The position numbers and the translations under genes were made by a program. From Alphaproteobacteria bacterium (GTDB lineage: Bacteria; Pseudomonadota; Alphaproteobacteria; Rhizobiales; TMED25), in the NCBI GenBank assembly GCA_963582255.1, contig CAUZRD010000002.1, positions 1-35,944 of the forward strand: a stretch of DNA of 35,944 nt. Direction: 5' to 3'. The notes beneath the pieces are model-generated. The model had not been told where the DNA came from and made no database searches. It saw only the letters and a program-made list of their open reading frames with translations. Shown here piece by piece: positions 32,310-35,530 of this stretch (position 1 is the stretch's first letter; every line of letters starts with the position of its first letter).

Positions 32310-32492
32310 ATGTTTGCGAGCGCAAATCAGGCGCTGGGTAGTTTCATCGACGAAGGCTTAATTTTCTTTACGCTGCAGTGGATCGATGAGGAGTTTGAGA
32401 AGATTCGCGGCCACTCGCCTGCCTGCACGTCGGTGCTTGTGCACCGCGGTGGAAAGCCAAATTTGAATGAGGAGCTAGTATGTCGGAATTGA
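32310..32492 (+). CDS. Hypothetical small protein (60 aa), uncertain
   Basis: This ORF fills the gap between the ATPase gene and the next gene and overlaps the latter's start by 13 nt. I recognise no family. It could equally be a non-coding spacer. Confidence 0.25.
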   Translation: MFASANQALGSFIDEGLIFFTLQWIDEEFEKIRGHSPACTSVLVHRGGKPNLNEELVCRN

Positions 32493-33406
32493 TACGTGTC
32501 TGTCACTCGGTCCACGGGGCGGCCAATGCTATCATGGCGCTCGGCGTCGCATCGGGATTTTTCGCTGATGTCGGACTGAACGTCTTCATGGAGGAGATGC
32601 CCCGAACAGGGGACGCCATGAGGAAACTCATCGATGGGACAACCGAGTTTGTCGTCGTCGGTGCTGTGCCCGTCATCAATGCTGCACGTGCGGGCCATCA
32701 TCCGTTGATCGTCATGAGCATTGAAGCAGATAATGTTTTTGCAGTGATGGGTTCAAGTTCGATCCGCTCGCCGAACGACCTGAAGGGCAAGATAATTGCC
32801 ATTAGTGGACGACACGAGCAGGACGACATCATGGTGCGTCGCGCTCTTGCGCATTGGGGAATTGATCCAGACAATGATGTGACGTTCGAGGCGCGGGGTA
32901 GCCGCGGGAAATGCTGGGATGCGATTATTTCCGGCGAGGCCGTTGCGATGTGTGCAACTATTCCTCAGCCGATTCTTGCACGAGCAAACGGGCTGCCTGT
33001 CCTCATGGATTTTGCGAATTTGCACGAGCCCTATCAAGCGGGCTCAGTGGTGACGACGCGGGCCTACGCCGATGCAAATTCGGACACTGTGACCCGCTTT
33101 CTTGAGGGCCAGCTTCGCGCTGTCCGTCAGTTTCAGAGCGATTTCGAGTTGTCGCTGCCGCATTTGAAGGCCCGGAGCAAACTCGATGATGTCGAAGTTT
33201 TGCGTGAAACGCATCGATTGTTCGGTGAGGCCGCGGAGGACTACATCCCCAATCCGGCGGCTTCGGCCACGGTGTTGTGTAATCTCGCCGCCGCCATCGG
33301 TGAGCCGATTGATATTGATTTGGACCGGATCATCGATGCCAGTTTCGCGACTGCGCTTGAAGGCCGCAAGCCGTACCCGTCCGTTGGCCGCGCCCCGAGC
33401 ACCTGA
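32480..33406 (+). CDS. NMT1/THI5-like (SsuA/TauA/ThiY-fold) binding-protein-domain protein without signal peptide, paralog 1
   Basis: 308 aa. AGGAG lies 5 nt before the ATG. The protein starts directly with the first beta-strand and helix of the type-2 periplasmic-binding fold (IRVCHSVHGAANAIMALGVASGFFADVGLNV), with no leader. The family call is from the sequence pattern, not a search. Confidence 0.75.
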   Translation: MSELIRVCHSVHGAANAIMALGVASGFFADVGLNVFMEEMPRTGDAMRKLIDGTTEFVVVGAVPVINAARAGHHPLIVMSIEADNVFAVMGSSSIRSPNDLKGKIIAISGRHEQDDIMVRRALAHWGIDPDNDVTFEARGSRGKCWDAIISGEAVAMCATIPQPILARANGLPVLMDFANLHEPYQAGSVVTTRAYADANSDTVTRFLEGQLRAVRQFQSDFELSLPHLKARSKLDDVEVLRETHRLFGEAAEDYIPNPAASATVLCNLAAAIGEPIDIDLDRIIDASFATALEGRKPYPSVGRAPST

Positions 33407-33434
33407 GTTTTCTCGTGAATTCAAGGCGGGTTTG

Positions 33435-33521
33435 TTACACCCTCTTTAACATCTCCAACATCCTAAACACCCCCCGCAGCAGCTTCAGGATGTCCTCGTC
33501 TAAATACCGTTTCCCTGTCAT
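33435..33521 (-). pseudogene. Possible relic of an IS3-family transposase OrfA N-terminus (28 codons)
   Basis: Hand translation gives MTGKRYLDEDILKLLRGVFRMLEMLKRV*. The first 16 residues fit the IS3/IS407 OrfA start pattern (K-R-Y/F-x-D/E-E-x-I-x-x-x-L-R). The rest does not fit. The match is very short. Confidence 0.25.
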
Positions 33522-33668
33522 CTCCCATCCCCCTTCTCAGACCACAATAGTGGCCCAGTTTTAAGGGGGAAGGACTACTGCTTAAACTCAAACTAAGGAT
33601 GTGCCAGGCTCTCCGATCCTGAGACTATTAGCTTATCTTAAGATATTTGAACCCGGACATGCTACGAG

Positions 33669-34142
33669 CTACTTCTTGGACTCTTTTCGTTTGATCCATT
33701 GGATCAAATCCGCTGGTTCGAGCCGAGCCAGCGGGCCATCACTGTAGCTGGAAAATATGACCTTGCCGTCGGGGTTCAAAATGAATTCCGAGGGCTGGAT
33801 GATCGAGCGTCGCTCTTCCCAGAAGGAGCCAAGCATATGGGCGTTGGAGCGTGTCACACCATAGCCAACCGAAAACGAAACTTCGGTGGAAACTTCCTTA
33901 GCCTTGTCAATTGGATCAACACTAGCGCTGACCAATATGCGAGCGCCAAGGGCGTCAAGTTCAGGCTTAATTTTCTCGAGGCCGACTAACTGACGGCGAC
34001 AGTATGGTCACCAATGGCCGCGATAAAACAATATCACCCGATATTTCGCGTCCATGCTGTCTGGCAGTTCCAATGTTGAACCGTCAACCAAATTAAGCTT
34101 CATCCATGGGAAACAGTCGCCAATGCCAAGCTTTTTCGTCAT
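33669..34142 (-). CDS. Peroxiredoxin-like thiol:disulfide oxidoreductase (AhpC/TSA, PRX_like2-type) with in-frame TGA at 34010-34008; candidate selenoprotein (U-P-Y-C)
   Basis: ORFs 34008..34214 and 33669..33935 are in the same frame, separated only by one TGA and 24 sense codons. Read-through gives 157 aa: MTKKLGIGDCFPWMKLNLVDGSTLELPDSMDAKYRVILFYRGHW-[TGA]-PYCRRQLVGLEKIKPELDALGARILVSASVDPIDKAKE... In the family motif FYRGhWCPxC the TGA replaces the first Cys. AAGGA lies 8 nt upstream of the ATG at 34142. Confidence 0.65.
33981..33997 (-). ncRNA. Candidate bacterial SECIS-like hairpin within the coding sequence
   Basis: The minus-strand RNA GCCGUCAGUUAGUCGGC starts 11 nt after the UGA. It has a GCCG/CGGC stem, a U-U mismatch, a C-G pair, and an apical loop AGUUA with G as its second nucleotide. 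I folded it by hand. The stem is short. Confidence 0.35.
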
Positions 34143-34546
34143 GAAAATTATCCTTCGATTGACGCTTTGAAGTGAGTCAATATCGATACCACATTCCAAC
34201 TCTACGGCGCCCACTTTTTGAAGGCAATCGCTTAATCAAAACCATTTTCTGATGTTCTTATCCAACTGAGCTTCGTAAGTTCAATAGTCGTTTTCTCTCG
34301 ATTATTAGTTCCCACGTTGCTGCTGAACAATCCGGCAGAAGCTACCTGGCGCAATTGTCAGCGTCCAAGCATCGAGGAATTCCAATTGTCCTGATAATGG
34401 CTGCATGTCAGCGCGTTGATGCGTAGAAAGTCGACAAACGAGCTTAAATATATGAAATCAAATGACTACAGATACCTCTCAGCCGATTCCCAAAAAAGTG
34501 GAAAGTATATGTGTTTCCAATAAGGCTCCTACTTCTTGATCACACT

Positions 34547-35473
34547 TCAAGCGCCGGGCGCGATTTGGGTGGTGCTGTAAGGTGCACGGCCCTCCAATGC
34601 GATGGCAAATTTAGGATCAATGATCTTTTCGAGATCTACATCGAGGGGTTTGCCAAGGGTCTCCGACAAGTTGCGCAGGACATTGGCCGACGCCACCGGA
34701 TTGGGGATGTAGTCCTCCGCGGCTTCACCAAACAATCGATGTGTTTCACGCAAAACTTCGACATCATCGAGTTTGCTCAGGGTGATAAGATGGGGCAAGG
34801 CCGCCTCGAAATCGCTCTGAAAAAGTCGAACCGCACGCAGTTGGCCGGCAAGAAAACGGTGCACATTGTCGGGCTTGTCGTCAATATAGGCGCGCGTTGT
34901 TCCGATGCAGCCAGCCTGTAATGGCTCATGAAGTTCGGCGAAATCTTTCAGCACTGGCAGGCCGTTGGCGCGTGCAAGGATTGGCTGGGGAATAGTCGCA
35001 CACATTGCTGCGGCCTCGCCTGAGACGATTGCCTTCCAGGTATCGCCCCGGCTGCCATACTCGACGAAGATGACCTCCCTGTTCGGGTCGATTCCCCACT
35101 CGGAAAGGGCGCGGTGAATCATCACATTGTCCTGTTCGCCGTGGCCGGTGATGGCGATAGTCTTGCCCCTCAGATCTTCGGGCGAGCTGATCGATCGTGC
35201 CCCAATGATAGCGAACACGTTCTCTGCCTCGATGTTCATGACAATGACAGGGTAATGGCCGGCATATGCGGCACTCAAAATTGTCGCGGCACCGACAACC
35301 ACAAACTCCGTTGTGCCCGCTATTAGCTTTTTGACGGCATCTCCAGATCGAGGAATCTCCTCCATGATAACATCGAGTCCTTCCTCGGCGAAGTACCCGG
35401 AGGCGACGCCGAGCGCCATGATTGCATTGGCCGCTCCGTACGCCGAGTAACAGACGCGTATTATCTCAGCCAT
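34547..35473 (-). CDS. NMT1/THI5-like binding-protein-domain protein without signal peptide, paralog 2
   Basis: Roughly 70% identical by eye to the 32480..33406 product over the full length (MAEIIRVCYSAYGAANAIMALGVASGYFAEEGLDV...). I set the start at Met18 of ORF 34547..35524, which aligns with the paralog 1 start. Confidence 0.8.
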   Translation of the reverse strand: MAEIIRVCYSAYGAANAIMALGVASGYFAEEGLDVIMEEIPRSGDAVKKLIAGTTEFVVVGAATILSAAYAGHYPVIVMNIEAENVFAIIGARSISSPEDLRGKTIAITGHGEQDNVMIHRALSEWGIDPNREVIFVEYGSRGDTWKAIVSGEAAAMCATIPQPILARANGLPVLKDFAELHEPLQAGCIGTTRAYIDDKPDNVHRFLAGQLRAVRLFQSDFEAALPHLITLSKLDDVEVLRETHRLFGEAAEDYIPNPVASANVLRNLSETLGKPLDVDLEKIIDPKFAIALEGRAPYSTTQIAPGA

Positions 35474-35530
35474 GCAATAGACTCCCCCAAGCATCAAAGC
35501 CGTTGGCACCTGTCCAGCTGACATTTTTGC

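What the first reader, a model, noticed from the sequence alone, without database searches (positions are those of the whole stretch)
33669..34142. In-frame TGA at the redox-active Cys of a peroxiredoxin-like gene: candidate selenoprotein (W-U-P-Y-C) with a SECIS-like hairpin
The ORF track shows two minus-strand fragments (34008..34214 and 33669..33935) that would normally be read as a broken gene. I checked the codons by hand. Both fragments are in the same frame, and the only interruption is one TGA (34010-34008) followed by 24 sense codons. The joined product reads ...VILFYRGHW-TGA-PYCRRQLVGLEKIKPELDALGARILVSASVDP.... In AhpC/TSA PRX_like2-type redoxins the equivalent motif is FYRG-h-W-C-P-x-C. 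The stop therefore replaces exactly the first (attacking) Cys of the CxxC pair, which is the classic position of selenocysteine in thioredoxin-fold selenoproteins. The 3' portion is intact, with no further stops or frameshifts, and still looks like the family. A hairpin (GCCGUCAGUUAGUCGGC, 33997-33981) begins 11 nt after the UGA and has a G in its apical loop, which matches bacterial SECIS geometry. Standard gene callers would miss this gene or label it a pseudogene.
Basis: partly seen in the sequence, partly recalled or inferred. Interest (0 to 1): 0.82.

Follow-up and report, generated by a model that had tools for sequence, protein, structure and literature searches.

The report
Selenocysteine-containing peroxiredoxin-like redox protein gene
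The apparent broken gene is very probably an intact gene for a small redox protein whose in-frame TGA codes for selenocysteine; it belongs to a selenoprotein family described since 2005, so it is a real but ordinary find that gene callers routinely miss.

Summary
One minus-strand reading frame (34142..33669, 157 codons) is interrupted only by TGA at 34010-34008, inside FYRGHW-TGA-PYC.

- All 80 species-level homologues fetched, out of 307 found (58-69% identical, Alpha-/Betaproteobacteria), carry TGA at this column. Only two metagenomic homologues carry TGC or TGT.
- Both halves of the gene are under similar purifying selection.
- The 17-nt hairpin 11 nt after the TGA is predicted independently by RNAalifold. 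It shows compensatory changes and strongly restricted synonymous codons.
- tRNA-Sec, often with selA and selB, lies beside the gene in about a quarter of the homologues. It is present in the same assembly in at least 41 of 80, sometimes megabases away.
- TGA is an ordinary stop codon in 11 of 29 window genes.

The protein has a peroxiredoxin/thioredoxin fold with a U-x-x-C motif at the start of helix 1. This matches the published "Prx-like thiol:disulfide oxidoreductase" selenoprotein family (PF00578, UxxC).

Two things remain untested. I could not check for selA, selB, selC and selD in this organism, because its genome is not in the searchable collections. The substrate is unknown. One side observation may be new: the family sits directly after selC, often followed by a DsbA-like selenoprotein.

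The parts
33669..34142 (-). Complete coding sequence of the Prx-like selenoprotein (157 residues, Sec at position 45, stop TAG 33671-33669)
   Evidence: Single frame with one internal TGA. Pfam AhpC-TSA 57.2 bits against a cutoff of 26, and Redoxin 38.9 bits. The length and start match homologues that begin M-x-E/K-K-L-G-I-G.
34151..34156 (-). Shine-Dalgarno-like GAAGGA, 8 nt upstream of the ATG
   Evidence: Read directly from the sequence. Not tested further.
34008..34010 (-). UGA codon 45, read as selenocysteine (the attacking residue of the U-P-Y-C motif)
   Evidence: TGA sits at the same alignment column in 83 of 85 aligned homologous genes; the other two carry TGC and TGT. In the AlphaFold model of a Cys-form homologue this position lies immediately before helix 49-60.
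33999..34001 (-). UGU codon for Cys48, the resolving residue of the UxxC motif
   Evidence: Cys is invariant at this column in A3 and in all loci.
33981..33997 (-). SECIS hairpin. Stems are 33997-33992 and 33986-33981, the loop AGUUA is 33991-33987, and there is a U.U mismatch at 33993/33985
   Evidence: RNAalifold on 72 distinct sequences predicts exactly these 6 pairs. 96.5% of cells are paired, against 5-55% for slid controls, and two pairs show double changes. Synonymous codon choice is restricted here. The hairpin starts at the 11th nt after the UGA, and the loop G-U is invariant.
34547..35524 (-). Upstream neighbour on the same strand: NMT1-family substrate-binding protein. This is context, not part of the element
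   Evidence: Pfam NMT1 and NMT1_2 on the identical gene in L002. A 404-nt gap separates it from the selenoprotein start. No promoter-like or terminator-like site was found in the gap.
32480..33406 (+). Convergent downstream neighbour: a paralogous NMT1-family substrate-binding protein. This is context
   Evidence: 69% amino-acid identity to the other copy. The two genes form an 887-nt, 71% complementary inverted repeat around the selenoprotein gene.

Best explanation
The locus is one intact gene for a cytoplasmic, thioredoxin-fold, peroxiredoxin-like oxidoreductase of 157 residues.

Translation (inferred). When the ribosome reaches UGA-45, SelB carrying Sec-tRNA(Sec) binds the 17-nt hairpin that starts 11 nt downstream. 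The invariant G-U in the loop is the likely contact. SelB then delivers selenocysteine instead of terminating.

Chemistry (inferred). Sec45 sits at the N-terminal end of helix 1. It acts as the nucleophile of a U-P-Y-C redox centre. It attacks a disulfide or a peroxide, and the oxidised selenium is then resolved by Cys48 as a selenenylsulfide. A thiol donor such as thioredoxin reduces it again.

What is shown: the frame, the fold family, conservation of the TGA and of the hairpin, purifying selection on both halves, and linkage of the family to tRNA-Sec, selA and selB.

What is inferred: actual Sec insertion in this organism, SelB binding, and the substrate (disulfide reductase versus peroxidase).
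For: Codon conservation
- The frame holds a single TGA. The AhpC-TSA/Redoxin domain spans both halves.
- TGA is conserved in all 80 fetched GTDB species homologues (of 307 found), in L001, and in six near-identical contigs of the same organism.
- It is also conserved in closer relatives at about 77% identity (L088 and L214).
- Database proteins that show Trp at this column come from TGA read with another genetic code.
- Hundreds of database hits are fragments of 87-88 or 105-107 aa that begin just after the motif. This is what gene callers produce when they stop at a TGA.

Selection
- dN/dS against L088 is 0.161/0.538 upstream of the TGA and 0.121/0.673 downstream. Mean pN/pS over all pairs is 0.33 upstream and 0.34 downstream.

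Hairpin
- RNAalifold independently predicts the hairpin.
- Pair 15-29 switches C-G to G-C in 4 of the 72 distinct sequences (five loci), through Arg CGC->AGG together with Gly->Ala. Pair 18-26 occurs as G-U, G-C, A-U, U-A and U-G.
- Leu at +7 is TTG or TTA in 83 of 83 sequences, while the other conserved Leu columns use CTN codons in more than 80% of sequences. Gln at +6 is CAG in 83 of 83.
- The Cys form L092 is the only sequence with CTA at that Leu.

Sec machinery in relatives
- tRNA-Sec lies within 1.5 kb in 21 of 80 genomes, confirmed by Rfam RF01852 at 69-76 bits.
- L001 has the order selA-selB-tRNA-Sec-gene.
- tRNA-Sec is present in the same assembly for at least 41 of 80 genomes. In some it is 0.5 Mb away (L073), about 1.8 Mb away round the circle (L052), or on another contig. 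These genomes include nine with the same U.U hairpin variant as the window.

Genetic code and fold
- TGA terminates 11 of 29 window ORFs, so the code is standard.
- The model has pLDDT 87.8. The closest solved folds are Bcp/Prx and ResA, at TM 0.7-0.8.
Against: - No selA, selB, selD or tRNA-Sec lies in the 36-kb window or in the 10 kb beyond its end. The rest of this organism's genome could not be examined.
- The window's hairpin is the weak variant. It has a U.U mismatch at pair 18-26 and an energy of -5.5 to -7.9 kcal/mol, against -10 to -11.5 in relatives. Its closest relatives L088 and L214 have G.U at that pair.
- Single-sequence folding does not recover the hairpin.
- No Rfam family matches the region. 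I did not look up whether Rfam holds a bacterial SECIS model, so this null may carry little weight.
- Sec insertion and enzyme activity have not been shown experimentally for any member I could find.
Confidence: 0.9

Rival explanations
1. The gene is a pseudogene. A chance nonsense mutation (TGC/TGT to TGA) killed a Cys-type peroxiredoxin-like gene, and the two fragments are decaying.
For: Gene callers split the gene. Cys forms of the family exist: L092 has TGC and L093 has TGT. No Sec genes lie in the window.
Against: TGA sits at the identical column in every one of more than 160 independent loci that were not picked for a Cys form. No other stop or frameshift occurs. dN/dS is well below 1 on both sides of the TGA. 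Six contigs of the same organism from different samples share one allele, which keeps the TGA and differs from the window at 7 other sites.
Confidence: 0.03
2. The family is a genuine selenoprotein family, but this organism has recently lost Sec decoding, or its U.U hairpin no longer binds SelB. Here the gene would then yield only a 44-residue peptide and would be on its way to decay.
For: The window hairpin is weaker than in its closest relatives, because CGG changed to CGU. The gene is not next to selC, and the Sec genes of this genome could not be found.
Against: The same U.U variant occurs in 12 other distinct sequences. At least nine of those genomes carry tRNA-Sec (L028, L039, L043, L049, L051, L055, L072, L075, L081) and two more have it adjacent (L054, L084). 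Purifying selection downstream of the TGA against L088 is 0.121/0.673. In relatives with complete chromosomes, the gene lies far from selC as a normal arrangement.
Confidence: 0.05
3. UGA is decoded here by something other than Sec: a reassigned genetic code (UGA = Trp or Gly), or near-cognate read-through that inserts Trp or Cys.
For: Several database entries show Trp at this position.
Against: Those entries are TGA translated under another code table (the locus does not translate to the stored protein under code 11 and shows TGA). TGA ends 11 of 29 ORFs in the window. The hosts are Alpha- and Betaproteobacteria. The gene is tightly linked to tRNA-Sec, selA and selB and has a SECIS-type hairpin.
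Confidence: 0.02

Closest known systems
Prx-like thiol:disulfide oxidoreductase selenoprotein family (PF00578, UxxC/UxxU). It is called 'Prx-like protein' in the Sargasso Sea study and 'Prx-like 1' in the GOS study, and the reviews give WP_010940744.1 as its representative
   Same: AhpC/TSA (PF00578) domain. Sec is the first residue of a thioredoxin-like UxxC motif, not the TxxU motif of true Sec-peroxiredoxins. Cys homologues exist. The family is predicted by bioinformatics and has no assigned substrate (PMC1088965, PMC2398784 Table 2, PMC9312934, PMC13188914).
   Different: I could not align the window protein with the published representative, so whether they share a sub-clade is unknown. 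Here the family is almost entirely Sec (3 Cys forms among the top 120 clusters, and 0 of 80 fetched genomes). It is found in uncultured Alpha- and Betaproteobacteria rather than the Deltaproteobacteria listed in PMC1794560. It is often the first gene after selC. I did not find that placement in the papers I read.
Sec-containing peroxiredoxin (Prx, PF00578, TxxU)
   Same: Same Pfam domain and overall fold. The nearest solved folds are Bcp4 3hjp, Prx1 and Prx6, at TM 0.76-0.80.
   Different: In Sec-Prx the Sec replaces the peroxidatic Cys in a T-x-x-U motif. Here Sec lies three residues upstream of that Cys (W-U-P-Y-C), and the Thr/Ser of the Prx triad is absent.
ResA/TlpA and tryparedoxin-type CxxC thiol-disulfide oxidoreductases
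   Same: These are the best sequence matches among solved structures (4fyu 5e-4, 3c71 1e-3, 4nmu 2e-3). The query's Sec column aligns with the first Cys of their WCP(P/H)C motifs. The fold match to ResA has a target-normalised TM of 0.81.
   Different: ResA and TlpA are membrane-anchored and extracytoplasmic, whereas this protein has no signal peptide or anchor (read from the sequence). NCBIfam scores of 16-19 bits fall far below their cutoffs of 170-210.
Escherichia coli fdhF-type bacterial SECIS (from my own knowledge of the SelB literature)
   Same: A short hairpin inside the coding region, starting 11 nt after the UGA, with a 17-nt minimal element and a G-U in the apical loop.
   Different: The sequence is unrelated. 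The stem here is a plain 6-bp G+C-rich helix with a 5-nt loop, AGUUG or AGUUA. The window variant replaces one pair with a U.U mismatch.
Peroxiredoxin-like family (cd02970) UxxS selenoprotein and SelL-related redox protein (NF040769)
   Same: Both are peroxiredoxin-like thioredoxin-fold proteins with Sec at the first position of the motif (PMC13188914).
   Different: The motif here is UxxC, not UxxS. The NF040769 score is 29.8 bits against a cutoff of 120.

Membership tests
Prx-like thiol:disulfide oxidoreductase selenoprotein (PF00578, UxxC) | AhpC/TSA (PF00578) domain | tested here: met
   57.2 bits against a gathering cutoff of 26, covering residues 7-129 and so spanning the TGA.
Prx-like thiol:disulfide oxidoreductase selenoprotein (PF00578, UxxC) | In-frame TGA at the first position of a UxxC motif, with Cys in some homologues | tested here: met
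   The motif is W-TGA-P-Y-C. 83 of 85 aligned homologues have TGA, one has TGC and one has TGT.
Prx-like thiol:disulfide oxidoreductase selenoprotein (PF00578, UxxC) | Bacterial SECIS hairpin immediately downstream of the UGA | tested here: met
   A conserved 6-bp hairpin at +14..+30 with compensatory changes, an invariant loop G-U and constrained synonymous sites. The window copy is the weaker U.U variant.
Prx-like thiol:disulfide oxidoreductase selenoprotein (PF00578, UxxC) | Host genome encodes selA, selB, selC and selD | not testable with these tools
   None lies in the window. The genome is not in genome contigs, and the metagenome tRNA-Sec scan hit no contig of this organism. The feature is met in relatives: tRNA-Sec is in the same assembly for at least 41 of 80, and selA and selB are confirmed in L001. 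selD was not examined.
Prx-like thiol:disulfide oxidoreductase selenoprotein (PF00578, UxxC) | Sequence relatedness to the published representative (WP_010940744.1) | not tested
Membership rests on the domain-plus-motif definition that the reviews use (PMC9312934).
Sec-containing peroxiredoxin (TxxU) | Sec at the peroxidatic position of a T/S-x-x-U motif | tested here: not met
   The motif is H-W-U-P-Y-C. Sec lies three residues before the Cys, and no Thr or Ser precedes it.
SelL-related redox protein (NCBIfam NF040769) | Score at or above the curated cutoff | tested here: not met
   29.8 bits against a cutoff of 120. No other NCBIfam model reaches its cutoff either.
ResA/TlpA extracytoplasmic thiol-disulfide oxidoreductases | Family-model score above the cutoff, and an N-terminal membrane anchor or signal peptide | tested here: not met
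   PRK03147 ResA scores 16.3 bits against 170, and StoA 18.9 against 210. The N-terminus MTKKLGIGDCFPWMKLNLVDG has no hydrophobic segment.
No CDD library was available.

The most novel reading that the evidence does not exclude
This UPYC redoxin may be more than one selenoprotein among many. It may be the 'anchor' selenoprotein of a mobile Sec module (selA-selB-selC, then the Prx-like(U) gene, then a DsbA/FrnE-like(U) gene) in uncultured aerobic Alpha- and Betaproteobacteria. In that reading it is the main reason these lineages keep the Sec trait, in place of the formate dehydrogenase that plays that role in cultured relatives (PMC1794560). It might even serve selenium handling for the pathway itself. 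The window copy would then be a relocated member of that module.
Probability: 0.15. Interest if true: 0.6.

Novelty: new member of a known kind. Interest (0 to 1): 0.33.

Why it matters
For annotation, the gene should be called as one 157-residue selenoprotein. At present it appears as two fragments. Public records label such pieces 'hypothetical protein' or 'peroxiredoxin', and no NCBIfam model reaches its cutoff for it.

For biology, the gene implies that this alphaproteobacterium decodes UGA as Sec and depends on selenium for part of its thiol redox chemistry.

The family-level picture is a modest addition to what is known of bacterial selenoproteomes. At least 307 species carry a relative, Sec is used almost exclusively, and a tightly constrained SECIS is embedded in the C-R-R-Q-L-V-G codons. 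The gene also frequently sits directly after selC, together with a DsbA-like selenoprotein. This gives a compact natural UGA-plus-SECIS cassette that could be tested experimentally.

Tried and rejected
- Single-sequence folding of the 63 nt after the UGA gave a different minimum-free-energy structure and a z-score of -1.8. It is uninformative alone.
- Rfam scans found only tRNA-Asn in the window. Nothing appeared in 33300-34700 even at E <= 10, so there is no tRNA-Sec remnant upstream of the gene.
- NCBIfam has no model above its cutoff.
- The promoter and terminator scan of the flanks found nothing.
- I tried three ways to reach the Sec genes of this organism, and all failed. The exact-peptide scan of genome contigs found only a 67%-identical betaproteobacterial MAG. 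A look-up of the first window protein to walk beyond the window found no record.
- Clustering of neighbouring ORFs across loci was noisy, because high-G+C DNA gives spurious ORFs in all frames. Only the DsbA-like neighbour was usable.
- The 44-of-120 figure for selC adjacency is biased. The tRNA-Sec search pattern was derived from tRNA-Sec genes that sit next to this gene family, so it should not be read as a general frequency.
- I considered and rejected three alternatives: a code-4 or code-25 host, a sequencing error (six independent assemblies agree), and a true peroxiredoxin with TxxU (motif not met).

Full report
**1. Observation**

On the minus strand, a single frame runs from ATG 34142 to TAG 33669.
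- It has 157 coding positions and one internal stop, TGA at 34010-34008 (codon 45), in the context FYRGHW-TGA-PYCRRQL.
- The ORF lister splits the frame into 34008..34214 and 33669..33935. The 24 codons between the TGA and the next possible start are all sense codons.
- A GAAGGA motif lies 8 nt before the ATG.
- The joined product, with U written as C, matches Pfam AhpC-TSA (57.2 bits, residues 7-129) and Redoxin.

**2. Is the TGA conserved?**

A protein search returned 733 relatives.
- A few are full length. Hundreds are fragments of 105-107 or 87-88 aa that begin just after the UPYCRRQ motif. That is the signature of gene callers stopping at a TGA.
- At the DNA level, 307 GTDB species genomes encode a relative. 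The best 80 (58-69% identity) are mostly Alpha- and Betaproteobacteria MAGs, plus a few records labelled otherwise (for example Gemmatimonadaceae).
- All 80, plus L001 and six near-identical contigs of the window's own organism, have TGA at the same column.
- 'Full-length' database proteins with Trp at this position are TGA read under another code table.
- Genuine Cys forms exist but are rare: L092 has TGC and L093 has TGT.
- Closer relatives at about 77% identity (L088, L214) also carry TGA.
- TGA terminates 11 of 29 window ORFs, so the genetic code is standard.

**3. Selection**

Nei-Gojobori estimates between the window and L088 give dN/dS of 0.161/0.538 upstream of the TGA and 0.121/0.673 downstream. 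Over all pairs, pN/pS is 0.33 upstream and 0.34 downstream. Both halves therefore evolve as one protein under purifying selection. That is incompatible with a nonsense-mutated pseudogene.

**4. The hairpin**

I aligned TGA plus 45 nt from 72 distinct sequences. Positions below are counted from the U of UGA.
- RNAalifold predicts one helix, positions 14-19 paired with 25-30, and a loop AGUUG.
- 96.5% of cells are paired, against 5-55% when the 3' partners are slid by 1-3 columns.
- Pair 15-29 changes C-G to G-C in 4 of the 72 distinct sequences (five loci). This uses an Arg CGC->AGG switch together with a Gly->Ala replacement.
- Pair 18-26 occurs as G-U (23), G-C (21), A-U (12), U-A (2, with Val->Asp) and U-G (1). 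It is unpaired in 13 sequences (12 U.U, including the window, and 1 U.C).
- Synonymous usage is strongly restricted in the hairpin codons. Leu +7 is TTG or TTA in 83 of 83, while the other conserved Leu columns use CTN in more than 80% of sequences. Gln +6 is CAG in 83 of 83, against 64 to 19 at another Gln column. Arg +4 is CGC in 78 and AGG in 5. Gly +9 is GGC in 70 and GGT in 7.
- The Cys form L092 is the only sequence with CTA at that Leu, as expected once the SECIS is no longer needed.
- The geometry fits what I know of bacterial SECIS elements: a 17-nt element starting at the 11th nt after the UGA, with G-U in the loop.

Two caveats apply. The window's own hairpin is the weak U.U variant, at -5.5 to -7.9 kcal/mol against -10 to -11.5 in relatives. 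Folding the window sequence alone does not recover it.

**5. Sec machinery**

The window contains none. It holds tRNA-Asn only. Its genes are housekeeping:
- ArgRS, ScpAB, TatABC, SerRS, SurE, SecDF, UvrA, SSB and DksA;
- a peptide ABC transporter;
- two NMT1-type binding proteins.

In relatives the linkage is striking.
- ARAGORN finds tRNA-Sec within 1.5 kb of the gene in 21 of 80 genomes, usually 40-350 nt upstream on the same strand. Rfam RF01852 confirms 20 of them at 69-76 bits.
- In L001 the order is selA (Pfam 1e-72), selB (GTP_EFTU, Beta-barrel_SelB, SelB-wing_2/3), tRNA-Sec, then the redoxin.
- Two genome-wide scans with tRNA-Sec subtype patterns returned 53 and 49 genomes. Combined with the adjacent cases, at least 41 of the 80 redoxin-carrying genomes have a tRNA-Sec in the same assembly.
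- From the coordinates, the gene can lie far from selC. The distance is 0.5 Mb in OY763326.1, about 1.8 Mb round the circle in OZ220750.1, and 20 kb in CBDBHH010000005.1. In six MAGs the two are on different contigs.
- Nine of these genomes carry the same U.U hairpin variant as the window.

So the window's arrangement is normal for the family: the gene away from selC, with the U.U variant. That this organism has the machinery is still an inference. Its genome is not in genome contigs, the metagenome scan did not reach it, and walking off the window failed.

**6. Fold and mechanism**

- An AlphaFold model of the Cys form P0001, built with 22 homologues, has pLDDT 87.8 and pTM 0.84. The U/C position sits immediately before helix 49-60, the classic CxxC location of the thioredoxin fold.
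- Foldseek finds Bcp4 (3hjp, TM 0.80), Prx1/Prx6-type peroxiredoxins and ResA.
- By sequence, the nearest solved structures are a WCPPC thioredoxin (4fyu) and ResA. The Sec column aligns with the first Cys of their motif.
- The N-terminus shows no signal peptide.

The most likely chemistry is nucleophilic attack by Sec45, followed by a Sec45-Cys48 selenenylsulfide that a thiol donor then reduces. Whether the physiological substrate is a disulfide or a peroxide is not known.

**7. Comparison with what is known**

- UxxC selenoproteins with a PF00578 domain are an established predicted family. [quoted passage not shown]
- The GOS study lists 'Prx-like 1, pfam00578, UxxC', with 225 sequences (PMC2398784).
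- The reviews list 'Prx-like thiol:disulfide oxidoreductase, PF00578, UxxC/UxxU', defining families by domain plus Sec motif (PMC9312934; PMC13188914).
- By that definition the window gene is a member. I could not align it to the published representative.
- It is not a TxxU Sec-peroxiredoxin, not a SelL-related protein (29.8 bits against 120) and not a ResA-type protein.

**8. What may be new**

These points concern the family rather than this window.
- The family is almost exclusively Sec-using and is widespread in uncultured Alpha- and Betaproteobacteria.
- It is very often the first gene after selC. It appears in 44 of 120 metagenome contigs chosen by a tRNA-Sec pattern, and in 11 of 53 and 28 of 49 genomes for the two tRNA-Sec subtypes. 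Those patterns were derived from this family's neighbours, so the fractions are biased upward.
- In 31 of 128 loci it is followed by a DsbA/FrnE-like gene with its own in-frame TGA, FSDYV-U-PWC.
[quoted passage not shown] I found no mention of the redoxin placement in the papers I read. I could not read Haft & Tolstoy 2025.

**9. Verdict**

This is a genuine, mis-called selenoprotein gene of a known kind. The interest is moderate to low for the locus itself. There is a somewhat more interesting family-level lead in the selC-linked two-selenoprotein module.

Noticed in passing
L001:3489-4097 (+), and 30 other loci listed: A DsbA/FrnE-like gene (Pfam DSBA 2.8e-25) lies directly downstream of the redoxin gene in 31 of 128 loci. 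It has its own in-frame TGA in the motif FSDYV-TGA-PWC-YLS, so it looks like a second UxxC selenoprotein in the same operon. The window has no such gene.
   Followed up: partly
L001:45-2957: selA, selB and tRNA-Sec lie immediately upstream of the redoxin gene. The tRNA-Sec (2862-2957) overlaps the 3' end of the selB reading frame (ORF ending at 2909). A selB/selC overlap of this kind was reported for Alphaproteobacteria in PMC8124441.
   Followed up: partly
window 32480-33366 and 34587-35473: The selenoprotein gene sits in the 1,220-nt spacer of an 887-nt, 71% complementary inverted repeat. The repeat is formed by two NMT1-family substrate-binding paralogues with 69% amino-acid identity. Closer relatives (L088, L214) have a completely different neighbourhood, so the gene has moved.
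   Followed up: partly
L088:9182-13384; L214:8404-9695: In the 75-77% relatives (L088, L214 and the P0096 contig), rhodanese and OsmC genes lie 1-3 kb downstream. Both are thiol-redox families with known Sec forms elsewhere. In L088 and the P0096 contig, small ORFs with faint to clear NHase_alpha hits lie just upstream and might be RiPP-type precursors. Neither was examined for in-frame TGA.
   Followed up: no
L092:9054-12077: The Cys form P0002 (TGC) lies about 2.6 kb from a DDE transposase gene, which is followed by two phage-integrase-family genes. This Cys copy may therefore sit in mobile DNA.
   Followed up: no
L281, L310; L083 with L292: Some Burkholderiales genomes carry two copies of the TGA-containing redoxin gene. 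In two cases both copies are in one 8-kb block. In one MAG one copy is next to tRNA-Sec and the other is on a different contig.
   Followed up: no
P0003, P0025: Two database proteins show Arg (GHWRPYC) or Gln (GHWQPYC) at the Sec column. I did not check whether these are real substitutions, other stop codons read under odd codes, or degraded copies. P0003 also has aberrant termini.
   Followed up: no
P0121-P0134: Public records (for example MAQ03557.1 and PPR66327.1, from marine Rhodospirillaceae and MarineAlpha MAGs) annotate the 59-residue N-terminal piece that ends at the TGA as 'hypothetical protein'. The mis-annotation is systematic across databases.
   Followed up: partly
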